Source: an uncultured Candidatus Saccharibacteria bacterium (GTDB taxonomy: Bacteria; Patescibacteriota; Doudnabacteria; UBA920). From it: a DNA stretch of 64,000 bases. This document shows, piece after piece, positions 3,093-63,976 of the stretch. The stretch covers positions 117,365-181,364 of the forward strand of contig CAZHIA010000003.1 in NCBI GenBank assembly GCA_964532425.1, given 5' to 3'. Both the position numbers and the translations under genes were made by a program. The notes beneath the pieces were generated by a model. The model worked only from the letters and a program-made list of their open reading frames with translations. It was not told the origin of the DNA and ran no database searches. How positions within the stretch are numbered: position 1 is the first letter of the stretch; each line of letters begins with the position of its first letter.

Positions 3093-3195
3093 CACAAATT
3101 GACCCTGTACCACTCATCTGTCTTGGGTAGATTCGGATGCAGGACACAGCACGAATTACCCCGGACGCCTATCATCGGTAAAATGATAGATTGCT

Positions 3196-3221
3196 GTAGG
3201 GGCGGATACCATCCGCCCTCC
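3196..3221. repeat. REP-like palindromic unit (gtaggggcggataccatccgccctcc) immediately upstream of the RAYT gene.
   Basis: GTAGGG + inner palindrome GGCGGATACCATCCGCC. Same family as 11528-11558, 50480-50514 and others. Confidence 0.7.
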
Positions 3222-3234
3222 AGTGTTTTGAAAA

Positions 3235-3759
3235 ATGTCTAATTCTCGAAAACAAAATCGTCTTCATTGCTATGATTACTCTCAACCGGGGTTCTATTTT
3301 GTAACTGTGTGCACACAAGGTAGGATTTGCTGTTTAGGAGAGATCATAAATGGAAAAATGAATTTGAGTGAAAACGGAAAAATTGTTGAGGAGTGCTGGC
3401 TCGGCATTCCACTTCATTACGAGAATGTGAGCATTGATTCGGCGCATATTGTCATGCCCAATCACTTGCATGGAATAATCATAATAGAACCTGTAGGGGC
3501 GGTTACTAACCGCCCTAGGAACCGGGCGGATGATATCCGCCCCTACAATAACACCAATCTTTCTGCAGTGGTGGGTTCATTCAAAAAAGCAGCATCCAAG
3601 CTGATCCATGCTGAATATACAGCATTTGATTGGCAAAAGTCTTTTTATGACCACGTCATCCGCAAAGATGAATCACTCGATAAAATTCGCGAATATATTC
3701 GCAACAACCCATTAAAATGGGAATTGGACAGAAACAATCCTTCCAATATCTGGATGTAG
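3235..3759 (+). CDS. REP-associated tyrosine transposase (RAYT), IS200/IS605-like Y1 transposase.
   Basis: HuH motif HIVMPNHLHGII and Tyr motif DWQKSFYDHVIRKDE. A REP-like pair lies in frame between the two motifs. Confidence 0.8.
   Translation: MSNSRKQNRLHCYDYSQPGFYFVTVCTQGRICCLGEIINGKMNLSENGKIVEECWLGIPLHYENVSIDSAHIVMPNHLHGIIIIEPVGAVTNRPRNRADDIRPYNNTNLSAVVGSFKKAASKLIHAEYTAFDWQKSFYDHVIRKDESLDKIREYIRNNPLKWELDRNNPSNIWM
3491..3546. repeat. Two REP-like units lying in frame inside the RAYT coding sequence.
   Basis: ctgtaggggcggttactaaccgccctag and gggcggatgatatccgcccctac are translated as ...EPVGAVTNRPRNRADDIRPY... Confidence 0.7.
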
Positions 3760-7952: not shown

Positions 7953-8564
7953 CTACGCTGCTGCTGGAGCTTCCGCGGGAGCGGAGGTCTCGGCAGGGGC
8001 AGCTTCGGCTGCTTCCGCAACCGGAGCTGTAGCCTCTTCAACGGGCTTTTCAGCTGTGCCGGTAGAGCCGGAGCTCTCTCCAAGCTTCTTCGCATATGCA
8101 TTGAGCAAGCGGGCGAAAGCGGAAATCGGACCATTGAAGACGGACAGCAACTGGGCGCGGAGTTGGTCTTTGCCCGGCAGATCGCCCAAAGCTTCTACCT
8201 GGGCCTTCTGCATAATCTTGCCTTCGACAATACCTTCCAGAATGGAAAGGGTCTTAATGTCTTTGGCGAGATTCTTGATAACGCGGGCCGGAGCGGTCTC
8301 TTCTTCGGGAGAGATGGCAATAATGACCGGCGTCTTGTACTCGACAGATGCCGTGTCCAAGCCATTGGCCTGCATTGCCTTCTTGACCAAGGTCATCTTA
8401 TAGACTTTGGAAAAGACATTTTCCTTGCGCAAGCCTTTACGGACCTTATCCAGATCCTTCACGGTCGTACCGCGGTAATCGGCAAACACCACAGACTTGG
8501 CATCCTTGAGCTTACCGGTTAATTCTGCCAAATCCTGTTCTTTCTGTGATTTTAGTTTAGCCAT
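7953..8564 (-). CDS. rplJ: 50S ribosomal protein L10, with an extended Ala/Glu/Pro-rich C-terminal tail.
   Basis: L10 N-terminal and core sequence (VFADYRGTTVKDLDKVRKGLR...). It lies immediately upstream of rplL on the same strand. Confidence 0.95.
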   Translation of the reverse strand: MAKLKSQKEQDLAELTGKLKDAKSVVFADYRGTTVKDLDKVRKGLRKENVFSKVYKMTLVKKAMQANGLDTASVEYKTPVIIAISPEEETAPARVIKNLAKDIKTLSILEGIVEGKIMQKAQVEALGDLPGKDQLRAQLLSVFNGPISAFARLLNAYAKKLGESSGSTGTAEKPVEEATAPVAEAAEAAPAETSAPAEAPAAA

Positions 8565-8753: not shown

Positions 8754-8966
8754 ATGGGTTTAGATCCATCCCTACAAACACATGTCCTCGGTGGGCGCCT
8801 GCGCGATCTCGCAGTCATTAATCCGCCTCAGGCGGAACCAACTGTCATAGGAGTATTAACCCAGGCACTTATCTGCCTGGTGATTTTATTCGCCTCAACA
8901 CTTAAGTAATAAGTGCCGGGGTGAACTTGCTGAAATTATAGTAAATCCTGAGAAAAACGTCAAGTA

Positions 8967-8995
8967 TTGACAAAAAACAACAATTCTGATATAAT
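8967..8995 (+). promoter_or_regulatory. Consensus sigma70-type promoter: TTGACA-17-TATAAT.
   Basis: TTGACA at 8967-8972, a 17-nt spacer, TATAAT at 8990-8995, then an AGGAGG SD and the ATG at 9023. Confidence 0.7.
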
Positions 8996-13670: not shown

Positions 13671-13834
13671 GATTTTATTCGGTCACAATACTCTTTTATT
13701 TCGCCTCAAATATACCACATTCGGCTAAAAACTACCACAGTATAAGAAGATTATCTTTGTATGATTTAATGCAGACAGCATTGACAAAAAACAAAATTTT
13801 TGATACTTTGTCGTGTTAAGGAGGAATAGGTATC

Positions 13835-14287
13835 ATGCCGAATACGGTCCACGTGAGCACAAAGACTTCCTTTTTTGATAACCTGGGAGGATCTTCTATC
13901 GAAGGGAATCCTCAATATCCATTTCGGCTGCGAGTCCTCGTCGCCGGTTACCGGGTCACCCCTCGCCACTCAATGTTCGAGTACTTCCGCGAGCTCGGAA
14001 TGAACCAGATCCCCGACATTCTGTACCACAAGAGGTTAAAAGGCAAGGATCTGAACTTCGATTTTGTTTTCCCAGAGCGCTGGATGTCGGTTCACGAGCA
14101 GTCACTATTCATTCACCGGCTCGAGACCCACCCGGACGTCGCTAAGATCAAAAGCGTCAGCATCATCACCCAAAACGCTCTCATCGTTGGCAATATCAAG
14201 CAAGGAAGTCTGGCCATGTTTCAGCTCCCAGAAGGTGACCCCGAAGCTGGAATTATGCAGCAGGACATCCCTGTGCCGACTCGCTAG
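13835..14287 (+). CDS. Hypothetical protein (150 aa).
   Basis: Promoter TTGACA-17-TACTTT at 13781-13809; AAGGAGG SD. Confidence 0.5.
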   Translation: MPNTVHVSTKTSFFDNLGGSSIEGNPQYPFRLRVLVAGYRVTPRHSMFEYFRELGMNQIPDILYHKRLKGKDLNFDFVFPERWMSVHEQSLFIHRLETHPDVAKIKSVSIITQNALIVGNIKQGSLAMFQLPEGDPEAGIMQQDIPVPTR

Positions 14288-14542
14288 TCATACACCCGCA
14301 CCGCGGCACCTTTTCTGGTGCCGCGGTCTTCTTATACCAAGACCATCTCCGATAACGACAATAATCGCTTATTTAAAAATAGATATTGTAGTTAAACTTG
14401 ACATTATTTATAAAATATGCTATACTTAGAAATTACCATAAACATGGTAACTCGGTAAGCATGGAAAGCCAGACACGCACTTCTCTTCGGCAAGCCTCTG
14501 ATTCCAAGTGGCAAAGCAGTAGCTTGGAACAAGCAGGAAGAG

Positions 14543-15211
14543 ATGAGGTTGGTAATGTTCACAGTTTTTCATTTGACTTCCGGCCACCACTTCGCTTTTT
14601 CAGCGAAGGAACTGGACGAGCTGAGAGAAAAGCTTGACACGTATGGCATGATCAACGATGGCGACACTTATGCCATCATGCAAGATGGCAAGCCCTATCA
14701 GCTCTGGGTCAAAGCCAGCTACGTGTCCATCCGCGACGATTACAAAGGCATGGATGGGTACCAGGGTTGGTTCCCGATGAGCCGCCGGAAGTGGGACACG
14801 CGCAAAGGTGAATTCACCACGGAAACCTACAAGGTGCCCGTGGCGATGTTCACCGGCAGTGTCGGCCACATCTACGGCACGTTCGGCGACGGAACTCCAC
14901 GCGAAGTCGAAGTGGATGGCATCCGTTACCGCATCGAGAATGTCTGCGGTAATCGGCACGTGTTCACGCTCGACGGGACGTGGCTCGGCGACTTCATCAC
15001 CCTATCGGATTCGGAGGGGTGGTACAAAGAAATCCACTCCGTTCGAAAGCCCACGCCGGCAACCTACACGTCGCCTAAGATAGAATTCTACCCCATTAGC
15101 TGGCGATATGGCAATCGCAGCAGTGAGGTCAAGTGGGCAAGCTCCGAGAAGGGTGCCGTTCGTCTGATTGTCAAACTCGTTAAGGAGTTTGCACAAGCCG
15201 CTGCGAAGTAA
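14543..15211 (+). CDS. Hypothetical protein (about 220 aa).
   Basis: ORF with an SD (AGGAAGAG); terminator at 15291-15339. Confidence 0.5.
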   Translation: MRLVMFTVFHLTSGHHFAFSAKELDELREKLDTYGMINDGDTYAIMQDGKPYQLWVKASYVSIRDDYKGMDGYQGWFPMSRRKWDTRKGEFTTETYKVPVAMFTGSVGHIYGTFGDGTPREVEVDGIRYRIENVCGNRHVFTLDGTWLGDFITLSDSEGWYKEIHSVRKPTPATYTSPKIEFYPISWRYGNRSSEVKWASSEKGAVRLIVKLVKEFAQAAAK

Positions 15212-15290
15212 ACTATTTCCGTTAGTCAGGCCGAGATAAACTGGCACATACTGTCAAAATAGACAGGAGGAAGTTTGAACAAAAACCTGA

Positions 15291-15339
15291 AGAGCACGAT
15301 GACCCGCACATTTACTGCGGTCTCGTGCTCTTTCTTTTT
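15291..15339 (+). terminator. Rho-independent terminator (agagcacga...tcgtgctct + TTTCTTTTTA).
   Basis: Long hairpin followed by a T-run. Confidence 0.65.
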
Positions 15340-15467
15340 ATGAAAATTTGTTTTACAAAGATTATCTTTGTAAATATTATTTTCGTAAAGCTCATAATAT
15401 ATGAAGTGACTCCCCGGTTGAAAAATTTGGTTACTTGTGTTAGTCATGTACGAAGATGTACGAAGAT

Positions 15468-15527
15468 AATCTTTGCATGGGGACCTTTGTAAATACAAAA
15501 TCACCAACCGACCGGTTGGTGATTTTG
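15468..15527. repeat. Uninterrupted copy of the 60-bp sequence (segments A+B) that is split by the tRNA-Gln gene at 17174-17366.
   Basis: atctttgcatggggacctttgtaaatacaaaa + tcaccaaccgaccggttggtgattttgt. It is 30/32 identical to 17174-17205 and 33/34 identical to 17333-17366. Confidence 0.75.
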
Positions 15528-15913
15528 TGGCTGGCCTTATGGGACGATGTTCGAACAGCTTTAACTTTAAAAATTACAGCGAAGTAACTGCAAGAATACA
15601 GTTAAGCCACGGTAATTAGTTGATTAGAGAGTCTTGCGAACTAACTTTGATTTCTGTTTCGATATTGTTTTCAGGGTTTGTGTTTTCACCAGACAAGAAG
15701 GTTATTCCAAGGTCAAGAAACTTTTGGATAACCTCTTTGCTAGGAAGACGCAATTTTGACCATTCAGAACAGTGTATTATCATTCTGAGCGGCTCTCCTA
15801 TGAGTTCGAAGGCTTTTGTTTCTTGCAGTTACTTCTTAATAATATTATACACCGATTTACATTTGTAATAAAAAATTACATGCTTAAACAAAAGGAATAT
15901 TAGCTTAGAATAT

Positions 15914-16432
15914 ATGTTATATGCTTTTTTGATCGTTTTAGTAATATTATTGATTTATATAATATTTCGCTACGGCCCTCTAATTGAAAAGTTTGCAAAT
16001 AAAGTCCTCAATAATACAGAGCCGACATTGTATCCTCTATTCGAGAAATGGAGAATTATTCAAGTTCAGCAACACTTAAATGACTTACAGACTAAGTATA
16101 ATTACTATTCCCAGGAATTAACAACTAATGATAATTTTCGCCAAGATACTCCTTACACACCAACAAAAGAGGAATTGGGAATTATCATAGGCTTCTTTGA
16201 AACGAAAGCAGCCTATGAATATGAAAAAGAATTTTATAATTTTATGATCGAATCTAATGCTTCGATAATAAATTCAAAATCTAAAATTACTGAAATAGAA
16301 AAACAATGGACCGATCTTTCTATCCAAGGTTCCATCTCAAGAGCTGTTAAAATTGAAAAAGATATTACCACTTTCGTTGATATGCTAAAGAACCCTGAAA
16401 AGAAGAATCGTGTCGAAGATGCATCAGTATAA
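15914..16432 (+). CDS. Hypothetical membrane-anchored protein in a low-GC segment.
   Basis: N-terminal TM helix; AT-rich codon usage distinct from the surrounding DNA. Confidence 0.45.
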   Translation: MLYAFLIVLVILLIYIIFRYGPLIEKFANKVLNNTEPTLYPLFEKWRIIQVQQHLNDLQTKYNYYSQELTTNDNFRQDTPYTPTKEELGIIIGFFETKAAYEYEKEFYNFMIESNASIINSKSKITEIEKQWTDLSIQGSISRAVKIEKDITTFVDMLKNPEKKNRVEDASV

Positions 16433-16591
16433 TACAAAAATTTCTACAGAACCCGCACAATTTACACTGTACACAATTGCTTCCAACTAGAGAAATTAAC
16501 CATGTAGAATGATTTTTAAACGAAGGTGACCTTTGCATGGGGATGGCAAATAAAAAAGGGACACCTTTTACAGTGCCCCGGGGGGTTTTGC

Positions 16592-17080
16592 TTACTTGAA
16601 CTCCCAAGCTTGCAGTCGAGCCGGCAGGTCGTCGACGCCGGCCAGGACGATATCACGGAGTTGTCCGAGCATAAGACTCAACTTGTGATCGAGAGTATTC
16701 GGCAAACGAACACCGAACATGTTCTCCCGCCCGTAATGATCAACGGAATGAAAGCCGATGGTGAGGTCGTTGTTTGTATTTCCGTTGTACCAAATGTCGA
16801 CCATTAAACCGTGCTTCTTTTTGTCATCGTGAGTCATTACTTGCACACCGAATCGTCCGCCGGGATAGAGCATGAGCTTGACGGGGTTGATGTGACAGAT
16901 GATCGTGTCCTCGTCACTTTCCACCATGACCGGATTTTTCCGAACGAACTCGGGCAGGTCATCTGCCAAGCCTCGAACCAGCAGCATGCCTAGATATGAA
17001 GTATCGAACGTTCGCTCGATTTCTGCGTAAAATCCAGGGTACAAAGCACCTCGCAAGTTTGCTTCTTGAACCAAGTTCAC
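16592..17080 (-). CDS. Hypothetical protein (about 162 aa).
   Basis: AAGGAGG SD before a GTG start (VNLVQEANL). Confidence 0.45.
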   Translation of the reverse strand: MNLVQEANLRGALYPGFYAEIERTFDTSYLGMLLVRGLADDLPEFVRKNPVMVESDEDTIICHINPVKLMLYPGGRFGVQVMTHDDKKKHGLMVDIWYNGNTNNDLTIGFHSVDHYGRENMFGVRLPNTLDHKLSLMLGQLRDIVLAGVDDLPARLQAWEFK

Positions 17081-17173
17081 AGCTTGCCTCCTTTTGTCTT
17101 GGTAGACAGCGTATAATATCAAGAATTGATAAAGTTATCAAGGGGTTGTTTTGCAGGGGGGCATACGATGATG

Positions 17174-17205
17174 TCCTTTGCATGGGGACCTTTGTAAATA
17201 CAAAA
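17174..17205. repeat. Segment A copy (tcctttgcatggggacctttgtaaatacaaaa) upstream of the tRNA-Gln.
   Basis: Direct repeat of 15468-15499; a partial third copy (cctttgcatgggga) lies at 16528-16541. Confidence 0.75.
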
Positions 17206-17214
17206 CCATCCTTG

Positions 17215-17243
17215 TTGAAAGATTTTGCTGGTTATGTTAGAAT
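17215..17243 (+). promoter_or_regulatory. Putative tRNA-Gln promoter TTGAAA-17-TAGAAT.
   Basis: -35 at 17215-17220, a 17-nt spacer, -10 at 17238-17243, about 15 nt before the mature tRNA 5' end. Confidence 0.5.
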
Positions 17244-17258
17244 TATCCTGCTGTCCGT

Positions 17259-17333
17259 TGGGGTGTAGCCAAGCGGTAAGGCAAGCGGCTCTGAACCGCT
17301 CATTCCTAGGTTCGAATCCTAGCACCCCAGCCA
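17259..17333 (+). tRNA. tRNA-Gln (anticodon CUG), 75 nt, with an encoded CCA.
   Basis: Cloverleaf with a 7-bp acceptor stem UGGGGUG/CACCCCA and an anticodon loop CUCUGAA. It is near-identical in layout to E. coli tRNA-Gln (GCCAAGCGGUAAGGC D-arm, GGUUCGAAUCC T-arm). Confidence 0.9.
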
Positions 17334-17381
17334 CAAAATCACCAACCGATCGGTTGGTGATTTTGTATTTGCAAAGGTCCC
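17333..17381. repeat. Segment B copy (34-bp perfect palindrome acaaaatcaccaaccgatcggttggtgattttgt) followed by an inverted copy of the segment A core (atttgcaaaggtccc).
   Basis: Matches 15494-15527. It may act as the tRNA terminator hairpin. Confidence 0.75.
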
Positions 17382-17430
17382 GTATTACTATAACGCACTC
17401 AAAAAATAAAAACCCTGCCCTCAGGCAAGG

Positions 17431-23417: not shown

Positions 23418-23583
23418 GTTGTTATTATTTTTTTGTTTTGTAAAAATCCAAATTGTTCTACATTTTACTGCATATGCAGTAAAATGTAGAATAATTTAAT
23501 AGATAAATTTCATCACTGTTATGCTTTTCAAAAATTTATATACAAGTTAGAAAAACAGGCAGCGCGGAGCGCTGCCTGTAGTG

Positions 23584-52549: not shown

Positions 52550-52768
52550 AAATCACCAGTTAATACACCATGCTTTATAAAAGTATATCACTTCTTGAAA
52601 TCTATTGACAAAAAATGATTTTTATGATAAAATCCTGTCCATGGTGCGGCTGGGAGATTCTGCTCAGTCTGCCATGACGCCAAAGGCGTGAACGACCATT
52701 ATCACTTTCTTATTTCTAAGTGGCATTGATCGCACGTAAACCTTCTGGCGGACAACCAGGAGGAATGT

Positions 52769-57744: not shown

Positions 57745-57770
57745 AATTTGAATCTTAATGCACAAGAACA

Positions 57771-57837
57771 TTTGACATTTGACCTGTGACATGTGACCGA
57801 ATGCAGTCGGTCAATTGTTAAATGTCAATTGTCAATT
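57771..57837. repeat. Inverted heptamer-array element: tttgaca tttgacc tgtgaca tgtgacc, an 11-bp spacer, then gtcaatt gttaaat gtcaatt gtcaatt.
   Basis: Seen in the sequence; the left block is 29/33 identical to 63495-63527. Confidence 0.7.
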
Positions 57838-57839
57838 GT

Positions 57840-58493
57840 TTATTTCACCCCTTCCCACTCGCTAAAAAATTCTTCTAAAAATTTTTCCATATATGCATGC
57901 CGGTTGCGGGCAAGCTGTTTGGCGGTTTTTGTGTTCAGCCGATCCTTGATGAGCAGCAGCTTTTCGTGGAAATGATGGATAGCTGCGGCTTCATGCTGCC
58001 TAAACTGTTCGACAGAAGAGATCTTTCTCGGCTTTGCTCCGGGAATGTACGGCGGTATGCCGTGAGCGCCTGCATATGTAAAACAGCGGACAACTCCCAT
58101 AGCCCCAATGGCATCGAGCCGGTCAGCATCCTGCACCACCTTCCCTTCTAATGATATCTTCTGCGCCTGTATGACATTCTTGCTAAAAGACATACGAGCA
58201 ACTATATGCAGAATCCGCTCCCGATCACCGGGCGCTACCCGCATCCGATTAAGCCATGCCCCCGCCTTTTCTTCCAGCCGATCCACTCGATCCGGTTCCA
58301 GCTTATAATCACCAAGATCATGCAGCAACGCCGCCATTTCGACTACGAACATGTCCGCGTGCTCAGCCTTGCCGATCCGCTTGGCCAATTGCCAGACGCG
58401 CCAAATATGCCACCAGTCGTGGCCGCTGCGGTCACCGGAAAACTCCTTTTTGATAAAATCTTCCGTTTGTTTAATAATCTGGCGCTTGGTCAT
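57840..58493 (-). CDS. HD-domain phosphohydrolase.
   Basis: HDWWHIWRV ... AALLHDLGD ... DADRLDAIG. Confidence 0.75.
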   Translation of the reverse strand: MTKRQIIKQTEDFIKKEFSGDRSGHDWWHIWRVWQLAKRIGKAEHADMFVVEMAALLHDLGDYKLEPDRVDRLEEKAGAWLNRMRVAPGDRERILHIVARMSFSKNVIQAQKISLEGKVVQDADRLDAIGAMGVVRCFTYAGAHGIPPYIPGAKPRKISSVEQFRQHEAAAIHHFHEKLLLIKDRLNTKTAKQLARNRHAYMEKFLEEFFSEWEGVK

Positions 58494-63484: not shown

Positions 63485-63494
63485 AATTAGGAAC

Positions 63495-63558
63495 ATTTGA
63501 CAATTGACCTTTAACATGGGACCGGTTGCAGAAAGTCAAAAGTCAAATGTTACATGTT
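63495..63558. repeat. Inverted heptamer-array element: tttgaca attgacc tttaaca tgggacc, an 8-bp spacer, then aaagtca aaagtca aatgtta catgtta.
   Basis: Seen in the sequence; homologous to 57771-57837. Confidence 0.7.
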
Positions 63559-63976
63559 AATTGTTGTTCTGTGATATCAAATCCTTCCAATGTTCAATAT
63601 ACTGTCGCTCTTTATTTTCGTATTCTTCCCGAGAACTGAGCGGGATATGCAACATCTGCATCCGCTGTTTCAGCTCTGCCATAGCCAGTTGTCGGTCGCG
63701 TTCATCCGCCATTTTTTCCAGTTGGACAATATAGCCGCAACCTTTGAGGAAATCCAGAGTGACCCCAATCCCATTCCAAATAAAAACATTCCTGACCCTG
63801 TGCCATTTGACGCGGACCGGATACCCCAGAGACACAAACAACTCGATCATTTTGTTGAAATCAGCCAATCCGAATTTTATTTCAGCGCCATCGGTAACCA
63901 ACAGTGCTTGCGAAGTATTGCGCTGTATGGATATCCGGCTCGGCGCCTCAAGCTGCACAATCTCCTGCCGGTCCAC
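63557..63976 (-). CDS. CYTH-like domain protein. The start is uncertain because the ORF is open toward the window edge.
   Basis: C-terminal block GIGVTLDFLKGCGYIVQLEKM resembles the CYTH C-terminus (cf. VTVGIDTWPKVPTYVELE in 2529-3092). Confidence 0.45.
   Translation of the reverse strand: MDRQEIVQLEAPSRISIQRNTSQALLVTDGAEIKFGLADFNKMIELFVSLGYPVRVKWHRVRNVFIWNGIGVTLDFLKGCGYIVQLEKMADERDRQLAMAELKQRMQMLHIPLSSREEYENKERQYIEHWKDLISQNNN

What the first reader, a model, noticed from the sequence alone, without database searches (positions are those of the whole stretch)
15447..17385. tRNA-Gln sits inside a split copy of a 60-bp sequence that is intact 1.7 kb upstream; the flanked 1.6-kb segment is low-GC
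Seen in the sequence: 15468-15527 reads A (atctttgcatggggacctttgtaaatacaaaa) fused to B (tcaccaaccgaccggttggtgattttgt, a 34-bp palindrome). At the tRNA locus, A occurs at 17174-17205 (30/32 identical) and B at 17333-17366 (33/34 identical). They are separated by exactly a 53-bp leader (with a TTGAAA-17-TAGAAT promoter) plus the 75-nt tRNA-Gln. An inverted copy of the A core (atttgcaaaggtccc) follows B at 17367-17381, and a partial A (cctttgcatgggga) lies at 16528. The A-related word agat(t/a)atctttg(t/c)a also occurs at 13749, 15359 and 15467. A tandem gtacgaagat x2 lies at 15447-15466. The DNA between the copies (15530-17170) is markedly AT-rich and encodes only two hypothetical proteins. Inference: either a direct-repeat-bounded insertion or recombination event at the tRNA locus (island or att-like scar; no integrase is present in the window), or a duplicated promoter-terminator cassette from which the tRNA was deleted. 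Either way the copies look recently duplicated.
Basis: seen in the sequence. Interest (0 to 1): 0.65.

Follow-up and report, generated by a model that had tools for sequence, protein, structure and literature searches.

The report
Rearranged flank repeats beside tRNA-Gln
The repeat is real, but it is a small local rearrangement scar built from the two flanks of a tRNA-Gln gene, with a separate 1-kb piece of foreign low-GC DNA inserted next to it; this is ordinary genome plasticity, not an integrase-borne island.

Summary
The repeats exist and are far beyond chance. They were partly misread. The upstream 76-nt element X1 (15459-15534) is a composite. Its left 45 nt are a direct repeat (89%) of the sequence just upstream of the tRNA-Gln promoter. 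Its right 55 nt are the reverse complement (96%) of the tRNA's last 7 nt, its 34-nt palindromic terminator and the next 15 nt. The two parts overlap in a 24-nt sequence that also brackets the tRNA cassette as an inverted repeat. X1 therefore looks like a joint formed across that inverted repeat. It is neither an empty site nor an att scar.

A close relative (735-bp ENA contig, about 8% diverged) keeps the hairpin-plus-stub and the upstream copy in place. In that contig, 17 nt stand where this genome has 990 nt (15553-16542, GC 32%). So only the AT-rich kilobase is variably present. Its right end is a third copy of a 19-nt palindrome.

The 30-nt core of A is identical within this genome but 26% diverged between the orthologues. 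That implies recent gene conversion.

No recombinase gene lies in the window apart from an unrelated RAYT-like ORF. No further copies were found in the public collections searched. Interest is modest.

The parts
13743..13761 (.). Palindromic site 1 (TAAGAAGAT-T-ATCTTTGTA), upstream of the promoter of the 150-aa gene. It contains the exact 15-mer AAGATTATCTTTGTA shared with site 2.
15354..15372 (.). Palindromic site 2, a perfect 9-1-9 palindrome (TACAAAGAT-T-ATCTTTGTA), just after the terminator of the 222-aa gene.
15448..15467 (+). Tandem GTACGAAGAT x2. The second unit is the start of element 'a' of X1.
15459..15534 (.). X1, the composite 76-nt element: a (15459-15477, palindrome TACGAAGAT-A-ATCTTTGCA) + c (15480-15503) + hairpin p (15495-15528) + stub TGGCTGG (15528-15534, complement of the tRNA 3' end CCAGCCA).
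15459..15503 (+). Direct-repeat part of X1 (a.c), 40/45 identical to 17164-17208. The stretch 15471-15500 is 30/30 identical to 17176-17205.
15480..15534 (-). Inverted-repeat part of X1, 53/55 complementary to 17327-17381. Read on the minus strand it is the last 7 nt of the tRNA, the terminator hairpin and a T-rich tail.
15553..16542 (.). Lineage-specific 990-bp low-GC segment (32% GC). In relative L017, 17 nt stand in its place. It carries a 55-aa ORF (15616-15783, minus strand), a 172-aa ORF (15914-16432, plus strand) and the third 'a' copy at its right end.
   Evidence: no informative homologues
16519..16542 (+). a'', the third copy of the palindrome plus TGGGG (AACGAAGGTGACCTTTGCATGGGG), 20/24 identical to either other copy. 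It forms the right terminus of the variable segment.
16558..16579 (-). Intrinsic terminator h2 of the 162-aa gene, conserved in L017.
16592..17080 (-). 162-aa ORFan gene (GTG start, GC 50%). It is a real gene: against L017, 29 of 41 nucleotide changes are at third codon positions and only 8 residues differ.
17113..17141 (-). Promoter-like site TTGATA-17-TATTAT of the 162-aa gene, divergent from the tRNA promoter. The region is 67/68 identical in L017.
17164..17208 (+). X2a: a' (17164-17182) + c' (17185-17208), lying between the two divergent promoters. Against L017, a' is 19/19 identical but c' is only 17/23.
17215..17243 (+). tRNA promoter-like site TTGAAA-17-TAGAAT.
17259..17333 (+). tRNA-Gln (anticodon CTG) with encoded CCA.
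17333..17366 (+). Perfect 34-nt palindrome, the intrinsic terminator of the tRNA. Its GC-rich core stem is flanked by A and T tracts.
17358..17381 (-). Inverted copy of c (22/24 to 17185-17208). It supplies the T tract of the tRNA terminator. Together with c' it brackets the promoter-tRNA-hairpin cassette.
   Evidence: (I2)

Best explanation
There are two separate events, not one bounded insertion.

(1) The 34-nt palindrome is the intrinsic terminator of tRNA-Gln. The promoter-tRNA-hairpin cassette is bracketed by a 24-nt inverted repeat, c (GGGACCTTTGTAAATACAAAAYCA). On the downstream side c provides the terminator's T tract.

X1 is a composite of both cassette flanks, joined inside c. It consists of the upstream flank (a.c), followed by the reverse complement of the hairpin and the last 7 nt of the tRNA. 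A crossover or a replication template switch between c' and its inverted partner would create exactly this joint. That is, it is the joint expected from an inversion or an inverted partial duplication of the cassette.

X1 is thus a fossil 3' stub of the tRNA transcription unit in the opposite orientation. No tRNA body is left beside it. It probably survives because it still works as a terminator for minus-strand transcription. This arrangement predates the split from a close relative.

(2) Later, in this lineage only, about 990 bp of foreign low-GC DNA (15553-16542) came to lie between two convergent terminators, X1's hairpin and the 162-aa gene's terminator. One terminus of that DNA is a third copy of the 19-nt palindrome 'a'.

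(3) The 30-nt core shared by X1 and X2a was recently homogenised by gene conversion between the direct repeats.

Shown: the repeat geometry, the indel, the conservation pattern and the absence of a recombinase gene in the window.
Inferred: the inversion or template-switch origin, terminator function, foreign origin and gene conversion.
For: Geometry:
- 45-nt direct repeat and 55-nt inverted repeat with sharp edges.
- No further homology in any flank.
- The direct and inverted parts overlap in the 24-nt c. X1 matches X2a at the GTAAAT position and X2b at the AAAATCA position.
- The 6-nt GGCTGG/CCAGCC extension has a chance probability of about 1/4096 and is conserved in L017.

Terminator reading:
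- Hairpins fold with z = -4.3 to -5.2 and are followed by T tracts. The tRNA is called by ARAGORN and scores 65 bits against Rfam's tRNA model.
- No tRNA remnant lies beside X1.

Independent assemblies of two samples contain X1 through X2a at 100% identity.

Relative L017:
- Window 15497-15552 and 16543-17205 are collinear with it, and 17 nt stand in place of 990 nt.
- The insert has 32% GC against 50.5% for the window.
- a' is 19/19 identical, c' 17/23, and the hairpin plus stub 53/56. Third codon positions of the adjacent gene differ at about 18%.
- Within this genome, 15471-15500 equals 17176-17205 exactly.

No integrase, invertase or transposase was found in ORFs of 120 aa or more.
Against: - Only one short relative contig (735 bp) covers the locus. 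It ends inside the hairpin and at the inner edge of c'. The relative's tRNA, its X2b and the a.c part of its X1 are therefore unseen.
- The order of events (X1 derived from the tRNA flanks or the reverse) rests on just two informative positions in c. Both orders are equally parsimonious.
- The origin of the bracketing 24-nt inverted repeat itself is unexplained.
- Whether the 990 bp is an insertion here or a deletion in the relative is inferred from GC content alone.
- The rest of the 285-kb source contig could not be searched for further copies.
Confidence: 0.5

Rival explanations
1. Cassette array with a recombination site. The 19-nt palindrome 'a' (5 copies between 13743 and 17182) would be the site of an unidentified recombinase acting in trans. 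It would delimit small ORFan cassettes upstream of tRNA-Gln. The tRNA cassette itself could flip between its 24-nt, or the 55-nt, inverted repeats and stay intact in either orientation.
For: - All 10 exact TRCRAAGRT sites of the 64-kb window lie in 13753-17378.
- Four of the five exact AAGRTNAYCTT palindromes in the window lie between 13747 and 16533 (the fifth is at 8389), and a degenerate copy lies at 17164-17182.
- Several sites lie after terminators or between convergent genes, where an operator makes little sense.
- The right edge of the 990-bp indel coincides with the outer edge of a''.
- a' is 19/19 conserved between lineages while the flanking c' is 17/23.
- The 55-nt inverted repeat includes the tRNA's last 7 nt, so an inversion would regenerate the tRNA.
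- The 222-aa gene sits in a different context in relative L013.
Against: - No recombinase lies in the window.
- The left edge of the indel is not at an 'a' copy.
- Only one indel has been observed.
- A 9-1-9 palindrome is atypical for tyrosine-recombinase cores.
- Both Logan assemblies run through X1 in the reference orientation only.
- No copies were found in the GTDB representatives, JGI metagenomes or IMG/VR.
Confidence: 0.15
2. Cis-regulatory reading. a.c would be an operator or upstream-activating module for a local DNA-binding protein. Its copies would resemble each other because of selection for binding, and the palindrome B would simply be a terminator.
For: - a'.c' fills the 73 bp between the divergent -35 boxes of the tRNA gene and the 162-aa gene.
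- Site 1 lies about 28 nt upstream of a -35 box.
- a' is invariant between lineages.
- The motif is clustered.
Against: - Exact 30-nt identity extends beyond the palindrome into c, which evolves at the neutral rate between lineages.
- Copies at 15354, 15459 and 16519 follow terminators or lie between convergent genes.
- The 55-nt inverted copy includes 7 nt of the tRNA, which no binding-site model explains.
- No DNA-binding domain was found in the adjacent ORFs.
Confidence: 0.15
3. X1 would be a duplicated copy of the tRNA cassette from which the promoter and tRNA were deleted by recombination between the 9-nt repeats ACAAAAYCA.
For: - 9-nt direct repeats (8/9) flank the 124-bp promoter-plus-tRNA stretch.
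- A and B abut in X1 exactly at that repeat.
Against: - The model predicts ATTTGCAAAGGTCCC to the right of the hairpin in X1. GGCTGG, the complement of the tRNA end, is found instead and is conserved in L017.
- No homology extends beyond the hairpin on that side in the direct orientation.
Confidence: 0.08
4. An integrase-mediated island or att scar at the tRNA, or an integrase-free 'insertion with long target duplication' of the whole 15504-17163 interval.
For: - A 45-nt direct repeat flanks 1.66 kb that contains low-GC DNA and no mobility gene. This resembles the 46-bp target duplications around low-GC inserts described in PMC2853133.
Against: - The relative shows that the variable unit is 15553-16542, not the repeat-to-repeat interval.
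- The 162-aa gene and both repeat copies are conserved in place.
- The repeat lies upstream of the tRNA promoter.
- The tRNA 3' fragment is inverted.
- No integrase was found.
Confidence: 0.07

Closest known systems
Inverted-repeat-mediated inversion or inverted duplication by homologous recombination or replication template switching (for example the ODIRA / DUP-TRP/INV-DUP models, PMC10766186)
   Same: A short inverted repeat brackets a segment. A novel joint has one flank in direct and the other in inverted orientation, with the switch point inside the repeat. The second breakpoint is sharp and lacks homology.
   Different: The scale here is tiny (24-nt repeat, about 150-bp segment). The event is bacterial and fossil, and was not observed happening. 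Only one of the two expected joints is present.
tRNA-targeting integrative elements, and integrase-driven inversions between inverted tRNA fragments (Thermococcus pTN3 integrase, PMC5495485)
   Same: A displaced copy of the tRNA 3' end lies at a distance from the intact gene, with variable DNA nearby. Recombination between the inverted copies would leave the tRNA intact.
   Different: Only 7 nt of the tRNA are duplicated, and most of the repeat is terminator and downstream tail. No integrase is present. The direct repeat lies upstream of the promoter. The variable DNA is not bounded by the tRNA-derived repeat.
Insertion with long target duplication (Furuta et al. 2010, PMC2853133)
   Same: A low-GC insert without mobility genes lies near roughly 45-nt direct repeats that are unique to the locus.
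   Different: The comparison with L017 shows that the indel edges do not coincide with the 45-nt repeats. One edge is a 24-nt partial copy only.
Small intergenic palindromic repeats (REP/BIME, Correia-like MITEs)
   Same: Palindromic, intergenic, adjacent to or acting as terminators, and carrying terminal inverted repeats.
   Different: The repeat is not dispersed: it occurs only at this locus in 64 kb and nowhere else in the collections searched. There is no target-site duplication. It is distinct from the GTAG-headed REPs this genome has elsewhere.

Membership tests
Integrase-mediated tRNA-associated genomic island | Tyrosine or serine integrase gene at one end of the element | tested here: not met
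   Pfam scans of the ORFs of 120 aa or more across the window (and three shorter ones beside the locus) found no integrase or recombinase. PHROGs, PADLOC and NCBIfam found nothing for the local ORFs.
Integrase-mediated tRNA-associated genomic island | Direct repeats (attL/attR) that contain the 3' part of the tRNA and bound the variable DNA | tested here: not met
   The tRNA-derived copy is inverted and holds only 7 nt of the tRNA. The direct repeat lies upstream of the promoter. The indel against L017 spans 15553-16542, not the repeat-to-repeat interval.
Integrase-mediated tRNA-associated genomic island | Variable presence between close relatives and deviant base composition | tested here: met
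   This holds for 15553-16542 only: 17 nt stand in its place in L017, and its GC is 32% against 50.5% for the window.
MITE / REP-like dispersed repeat | Many copies dispersed over the genome | tested here: not met
   Only this locus matches in the 64-kb window. The GTDB representatives gave 1 chance hit, the JGI metagenomes 2 unrelated 22-mers and IMG/VR none. The rest of the source genome could not be searched.
MITE / REP-like dispersed repeat | Terminal inverted repeats plus a target-site duplication | tested here: inconclusive
   A 24-nt inverted repeat brackets the tRNA cassette (I2), but the flanking bases (GCATG and GTATT) show no duplication.
Invertible DNA segment (inverton) | Inverted repeats flanking the segment | tested here: met
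   A 55-nt inverted repeat (53/55) flanks 1792 nt, and a 24-nt inverted repeat flanks 149 nt.
Invertible DNA segment (inverton) | Both orientations present in a population | tested here: inconclusive
   Two Logan assemblies cross X1 in the reference orientation only. No contig crosses the second repeat, and raw reads were not available.
Invertible DNA segment (inverton) | Cognate invertase nearby | tested here: not met
   None in the window.
Insertion with long target duplication | Direct repeats of 30 bp or more at both edges of an insert that is absent, with a single repeat copy, in a relative | tested here: not met
   L017 retains sequence on both sides of the 990-bp indel, and those edges are not the 45-nt repeats.
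Rho-independent (intrinsic) terminator | GC-rich hairpin followed by a T tract at the 3' end of a transcription unit | tested here: met
   17333-17366 starts at the last base of the tRNA (its CCA end) and is followed by ATTTTGTATTTG. 15495-15528 shows the same on the minus strand. Folding gives z = -4.3 to -5.2. Function in vivo was not tested.

The most novel reading that the evidence does not exclude
The 19-nt palindrome 'a' is the recombination site of an unknown trans-acting recombinase. That enzyme assembles and exchanges small ORFan cassettes next to tRNA-Gln. The tRNA cassette is itself a flippable module: its bracketing inverted repeats double as the A and T tracts of its terminator, so the gene stays functional in either orientation. 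X1 would be the record of the other orientation.
Probability: 0.1. Interest if true: 0.65.

Novelty: new member of a known kind. Interest (0 to 1): 0.3.

Why it matters
The finding gives a worked example, at nucleotide resolution, of how a tRNA locus in a poorly sampled uncultivated bacterium accumulates rearrangement scars and foreign DNA without any recognisable mobility gene. It also shows how a short inverted repeat around a gene can leave a composite joint that mimics an 'empty site'. It would matter more if the 19-nt palindrome proved to be a cassette recombination site. As it stands, this is local genome plasticity of limited general consequence.

Tried and rejected
Searches that led nowhere:
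- The exact-pattern scan of GTDB representative genomes for the c core gave only a chance hit in a Halobacteriovoraceae MAG. The source genome is not in that collection.
- The same pattern in the JGI metagenomes gave two unrelated contigs sharing just a 22-mer. IMG/VR gave none.
- Megablast of 13-19 kb against the phage collection gave no match. A blastn of 15440-17400 against plasmids matched the tRNA only.
- Loci of relatives of the neighbouring NDT/NUDIX gene (74-60% identity; L006, L007, L014-L016) share no synteny and carry no tRNA.
- The 162-aa gene has no homologue beyond its own cluster. The 172-aa ORF has 5 remote, unnamed relatives.
- Relative L013 (222-aa gene, 68% identity) aligns only over 14456-15272 and differs on both sides. 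It is too diverged to inform on X1.
- The AlphaFold model of the 162-aa protein reached pLDDT 53 and was unusable, so no fold search was run.
- Pfam (one sub-threshold DUF3573 match for the 172-aa ORF), PHROGs, PADLOC and NCBIfam gave no usable match for the local ORFans.

Ideas rejected:
- A decayed tRNA to the right of X1. A GTTCGAA word occurs there, but the alignment to the tRNA is not better than shuffles, and ARAGORN and Rfam find nothing.
- A Tn3-like or MITE element. There is no target duplication and no second copy.
- An assembly artefact. X1 is present in two independent Logan assemblies and in L017.
Full report
**Context**

The window is chromosomal DNA of an uncultivated bacterium. 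It carries rplJ and rplL (7.4-8.6 kb), an H+-pyrophosphatase, an archaeal-type PEP carboxylase, DHODH and HisRS. Overall GC is 50.5%, and tRNA-Gln(CTG) at 17259-17333 is the only tRNA. The stretch from 12 to 20 kb is almost entirely ORFans.

The source is a 285,837-bp NCBI contig. It is not among the GTDB representative genomes that could be scanned.

**Observation**

None of it is expected by chance: the A and B cores gave 0 matches in 100 shuffles.

Two corrections matter.

First, the upstream palindrome is followed by GGCTGG (15529-15534). This is the complement of the CCAGCC that precedes the palindrome at the tRNA. The strongest relation is therefore a 55-nt INVERTED repeat, 15480-15534 against 17327-17381, at 53/55. 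That repeat spans the last 7 nt of the tRNA, the 34-nt hairpin and the next 15 nt.

Second, the direct repeat is 45 nt (15459-15503 and 17164-17208, 40/45) and lies upstream of the tRNA promoter.

The two repeats overlap in a 24-nt sequence, c. This c also brackets the promoter-tRNA-hairpin cassette as an inverted repeat (17185-17208 and 17358-17381, 22/24). No homology extends beyond these edges in either orientation.

Low GC applies only to 15535-16518 (32%). The 162-aa gene has 50% GC.

**What the pieces are**

The hairpin at 17333-17366 starts at the last base of the tRNA's CCA end and is followed by ATTTTGTATTTG. It folds strongly and is the tRNA's intrinsic terminator.

Read on the minus strand, X1 is the same module: CCAGCCA, hairpin, T-rich tail. 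It then continues into the 19-nt palindrome 'a' (TACGAAGAT-A-ATCTTTGCA).

X1 is real. Two independent Logan assemblies contain 14656-17330 and 14820-17247 at 100% identity. Their contigs stop at the perfect palindrome at 17333.

**Origin of X1**

X1 equals the upstream flank of the cassette (a.c) joined, inside c, to the reverse complement of the cassette's downstream inner end (hairpin plus tRNA stub). A crossover or a replication template switch between the two inverted c copies would create this joint. At the two positions where the c copies differ, X1 agrees with X2a on the left and with X2b on the right.

The insertion-into-an-empty-site model predicts GGCTGG to the right of the hairpin at the tRNA, where ATTTGC is found instead. 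It would also leave the GGCTGG/CCAGCC match to chance, at about 1/4096.

No tRNA remnant lies beside X1. I therefore read X1 as a fossil joint, or 3' stub, of the tRNA unit in the opposite orientation. It has probably been retained because it is a working terminator. Comparable mechanisms are described for inverted-repeat-mediated template switching (PMC10766186) and for inversions between inverted tRNA fragments (PMC5495485).

**Comparative evidence**

The 162-aa ORFan has one cluster mate, from an ENA assembly. Its 735-bp contig, L017, is a close relative. The gene is 8.4% diverged at the nucleotide level, 29 of the 41 changes are at third codon positions, and 8 residues differ.

L017 is collinear with window 15497-15552 (hairpin, GGCTGG and 18 nt; 53/56) and with 16543-17205. 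It has 17 nt where the window has the 990 nt of 15553-16542. Three conclusions follow:

- (a) Only the AT-rich kilobase, with its 55-aa and 172-aa ORFs, is variably present.
- (b) The hairpin-plus-stub of X1, the 162-aa gene and X2a are older than the split of the two lineages.
- (c) The right edge of the indel coincides with the outer edge of a third copy of 'a' plus TGGGG (16519-16542). That copy is 20/24 identical to either of the others.

Between the two lineages, a' is 19/19 identical but c' only 17/23. The latter is about the neutral rate, judged from third codon positions. Within the window, 15471-15500 and 17176-17205 are identical over 30 nt. Paralogues that are more alike than orthologues imply recent gene conversion between the direct repeats in this lineage.

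**Motif**

All 10 exact matches to the 9-mer TRCRAAGRT lie in 13753-17378. About 4 would be expected over the whole 64 kb. The motif forms palindromes at 13743, 15354, 15459, 16519 and 17164.

Some copies sit between divergent promoters, where an operator would be plausible. Others follow terminators or lie between convergent genes, where an operator is not plausible. Conservation of a', and its position at an indel edge, keep open the reading that it is a recombination or cassette-boundary site. That reading is unproven.

**Mobility genes**

Pfam scans of the ORFs of 120 aa or more across the window found no integrase, invertase or transposase. The one exception is a RAYT-like ORF at 3235-3759 (NCBIfam REP_Tyr_transpos, E = 1.5e-12, below the curated cut-off). 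It goes with GTAG-headed REP palindromes elsewhere in the window, and these are unrelated to A/B.

The A/B core was not found elsewhere in the GTDB representatives, JGI metagenomes or IMG/VR. The AT-rich ORFs have no relatives in phage or plasmid collections.

**Verdict**

The island/att interpretation and the 'tRNA deleted' interpretation are not supported. A recombination scar, a separate lineage-specific 1-kb insertion and recent gene conversion together fit the data best (confidence about 0.5). The limits are that a single short relative contig covers the locus and that the rest of the genome could not be reached.

This is ordinary small-scale genome plasticity with one open thread: the 19-nt palindrome as a possible cassette boundary. 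Interest 0.3.

Noticed in passing
window 14456-14542 (compare L013 421-507): The non-coding leader of the 222-aa ORFan gene is about 85% identical to that of a relative whose coding sequence is only 72% identical. A hairpin, TTCCAAG-N14-CTTGGAA against CTTCAAG-N14-CTTGAAG, shows two compensatory pairs. There is no Rfam match. This is a candidate cis-regulatory leader.
   Followed up: partly
window 3194-3547, 8727, 11471, 11530, 50484, 54760, 59301; ORF 3235-3759: GTAG-headed REP-like palindromes occur in two families (GTAGGGGACGGTCGCGACCGTCCCCTAC and CTGTAGGGGCGG..CCGCCC). An ORF flanked by them matches REP-associated tyrosine transposase (NCBIfam E = 1.5e-12, below the cut-off; Pfam Y1_Tnp E = 1e-4).
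   Followed up: partly
L013 1-130 and 1177-2173: In the relative from SRR11567533, the 222-aa gene is preceded by a tRNA 3' end and a tRNA-like 78-mer that ARAGORN rejects. It is followed by an AT-rich membrane-protein gene that is absent from the window. The gene therefore sits in a different, again tRNA-adjacent, context.
   Followed up: partly
L011 6452-6473; L012 2302-2323: The exact 22-mer TTTTGTATTTGCAAAGGTCCCG (window 17361-17382) occurs in two otherwise unrelated metagenome contigs with 34% and 45% GC. In L012 it lies directly after a GGGAGCC..GGCTCCC hairpin. The number of hits fits chance, but both extend 3 positions beyond the search pattern.
   Followed up: partly
window 15570-15596 / 15820-15846: A 27-nt inverted repeat with a 16-bp perfect core (GAAGTAACTGCAAGAA / TTCTTGCAGTTACTTC) brackets the 55-aa ORF inside the AT-rich insert. 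It could pair the 5' and 3' ends of that ORF's transcript.
   Followed up: no
window 57761-57840 / 63491-63571: A 75-80-nt repeat made of TGACA/TTGTCAA-like words occurs in two intergenic regions 5.7 kb apart. It reads as both a direct (79%) and an inverted (74%) match.
   Followed up: no
window 23450-23497: A 48-nt near-perfect palindrome (24-nt arms, 96%) lies where the Logan contig L010 ends and folds back on itself.
   Followed up: no
window 8963-8991, 13777-13805, 52601-52629: A recurrent promoter-like 29-mer, ATTGACAAAAAAC..TTTTGATA, may be a lineage-typical promoter architecture (family D7).
   Followed up: no
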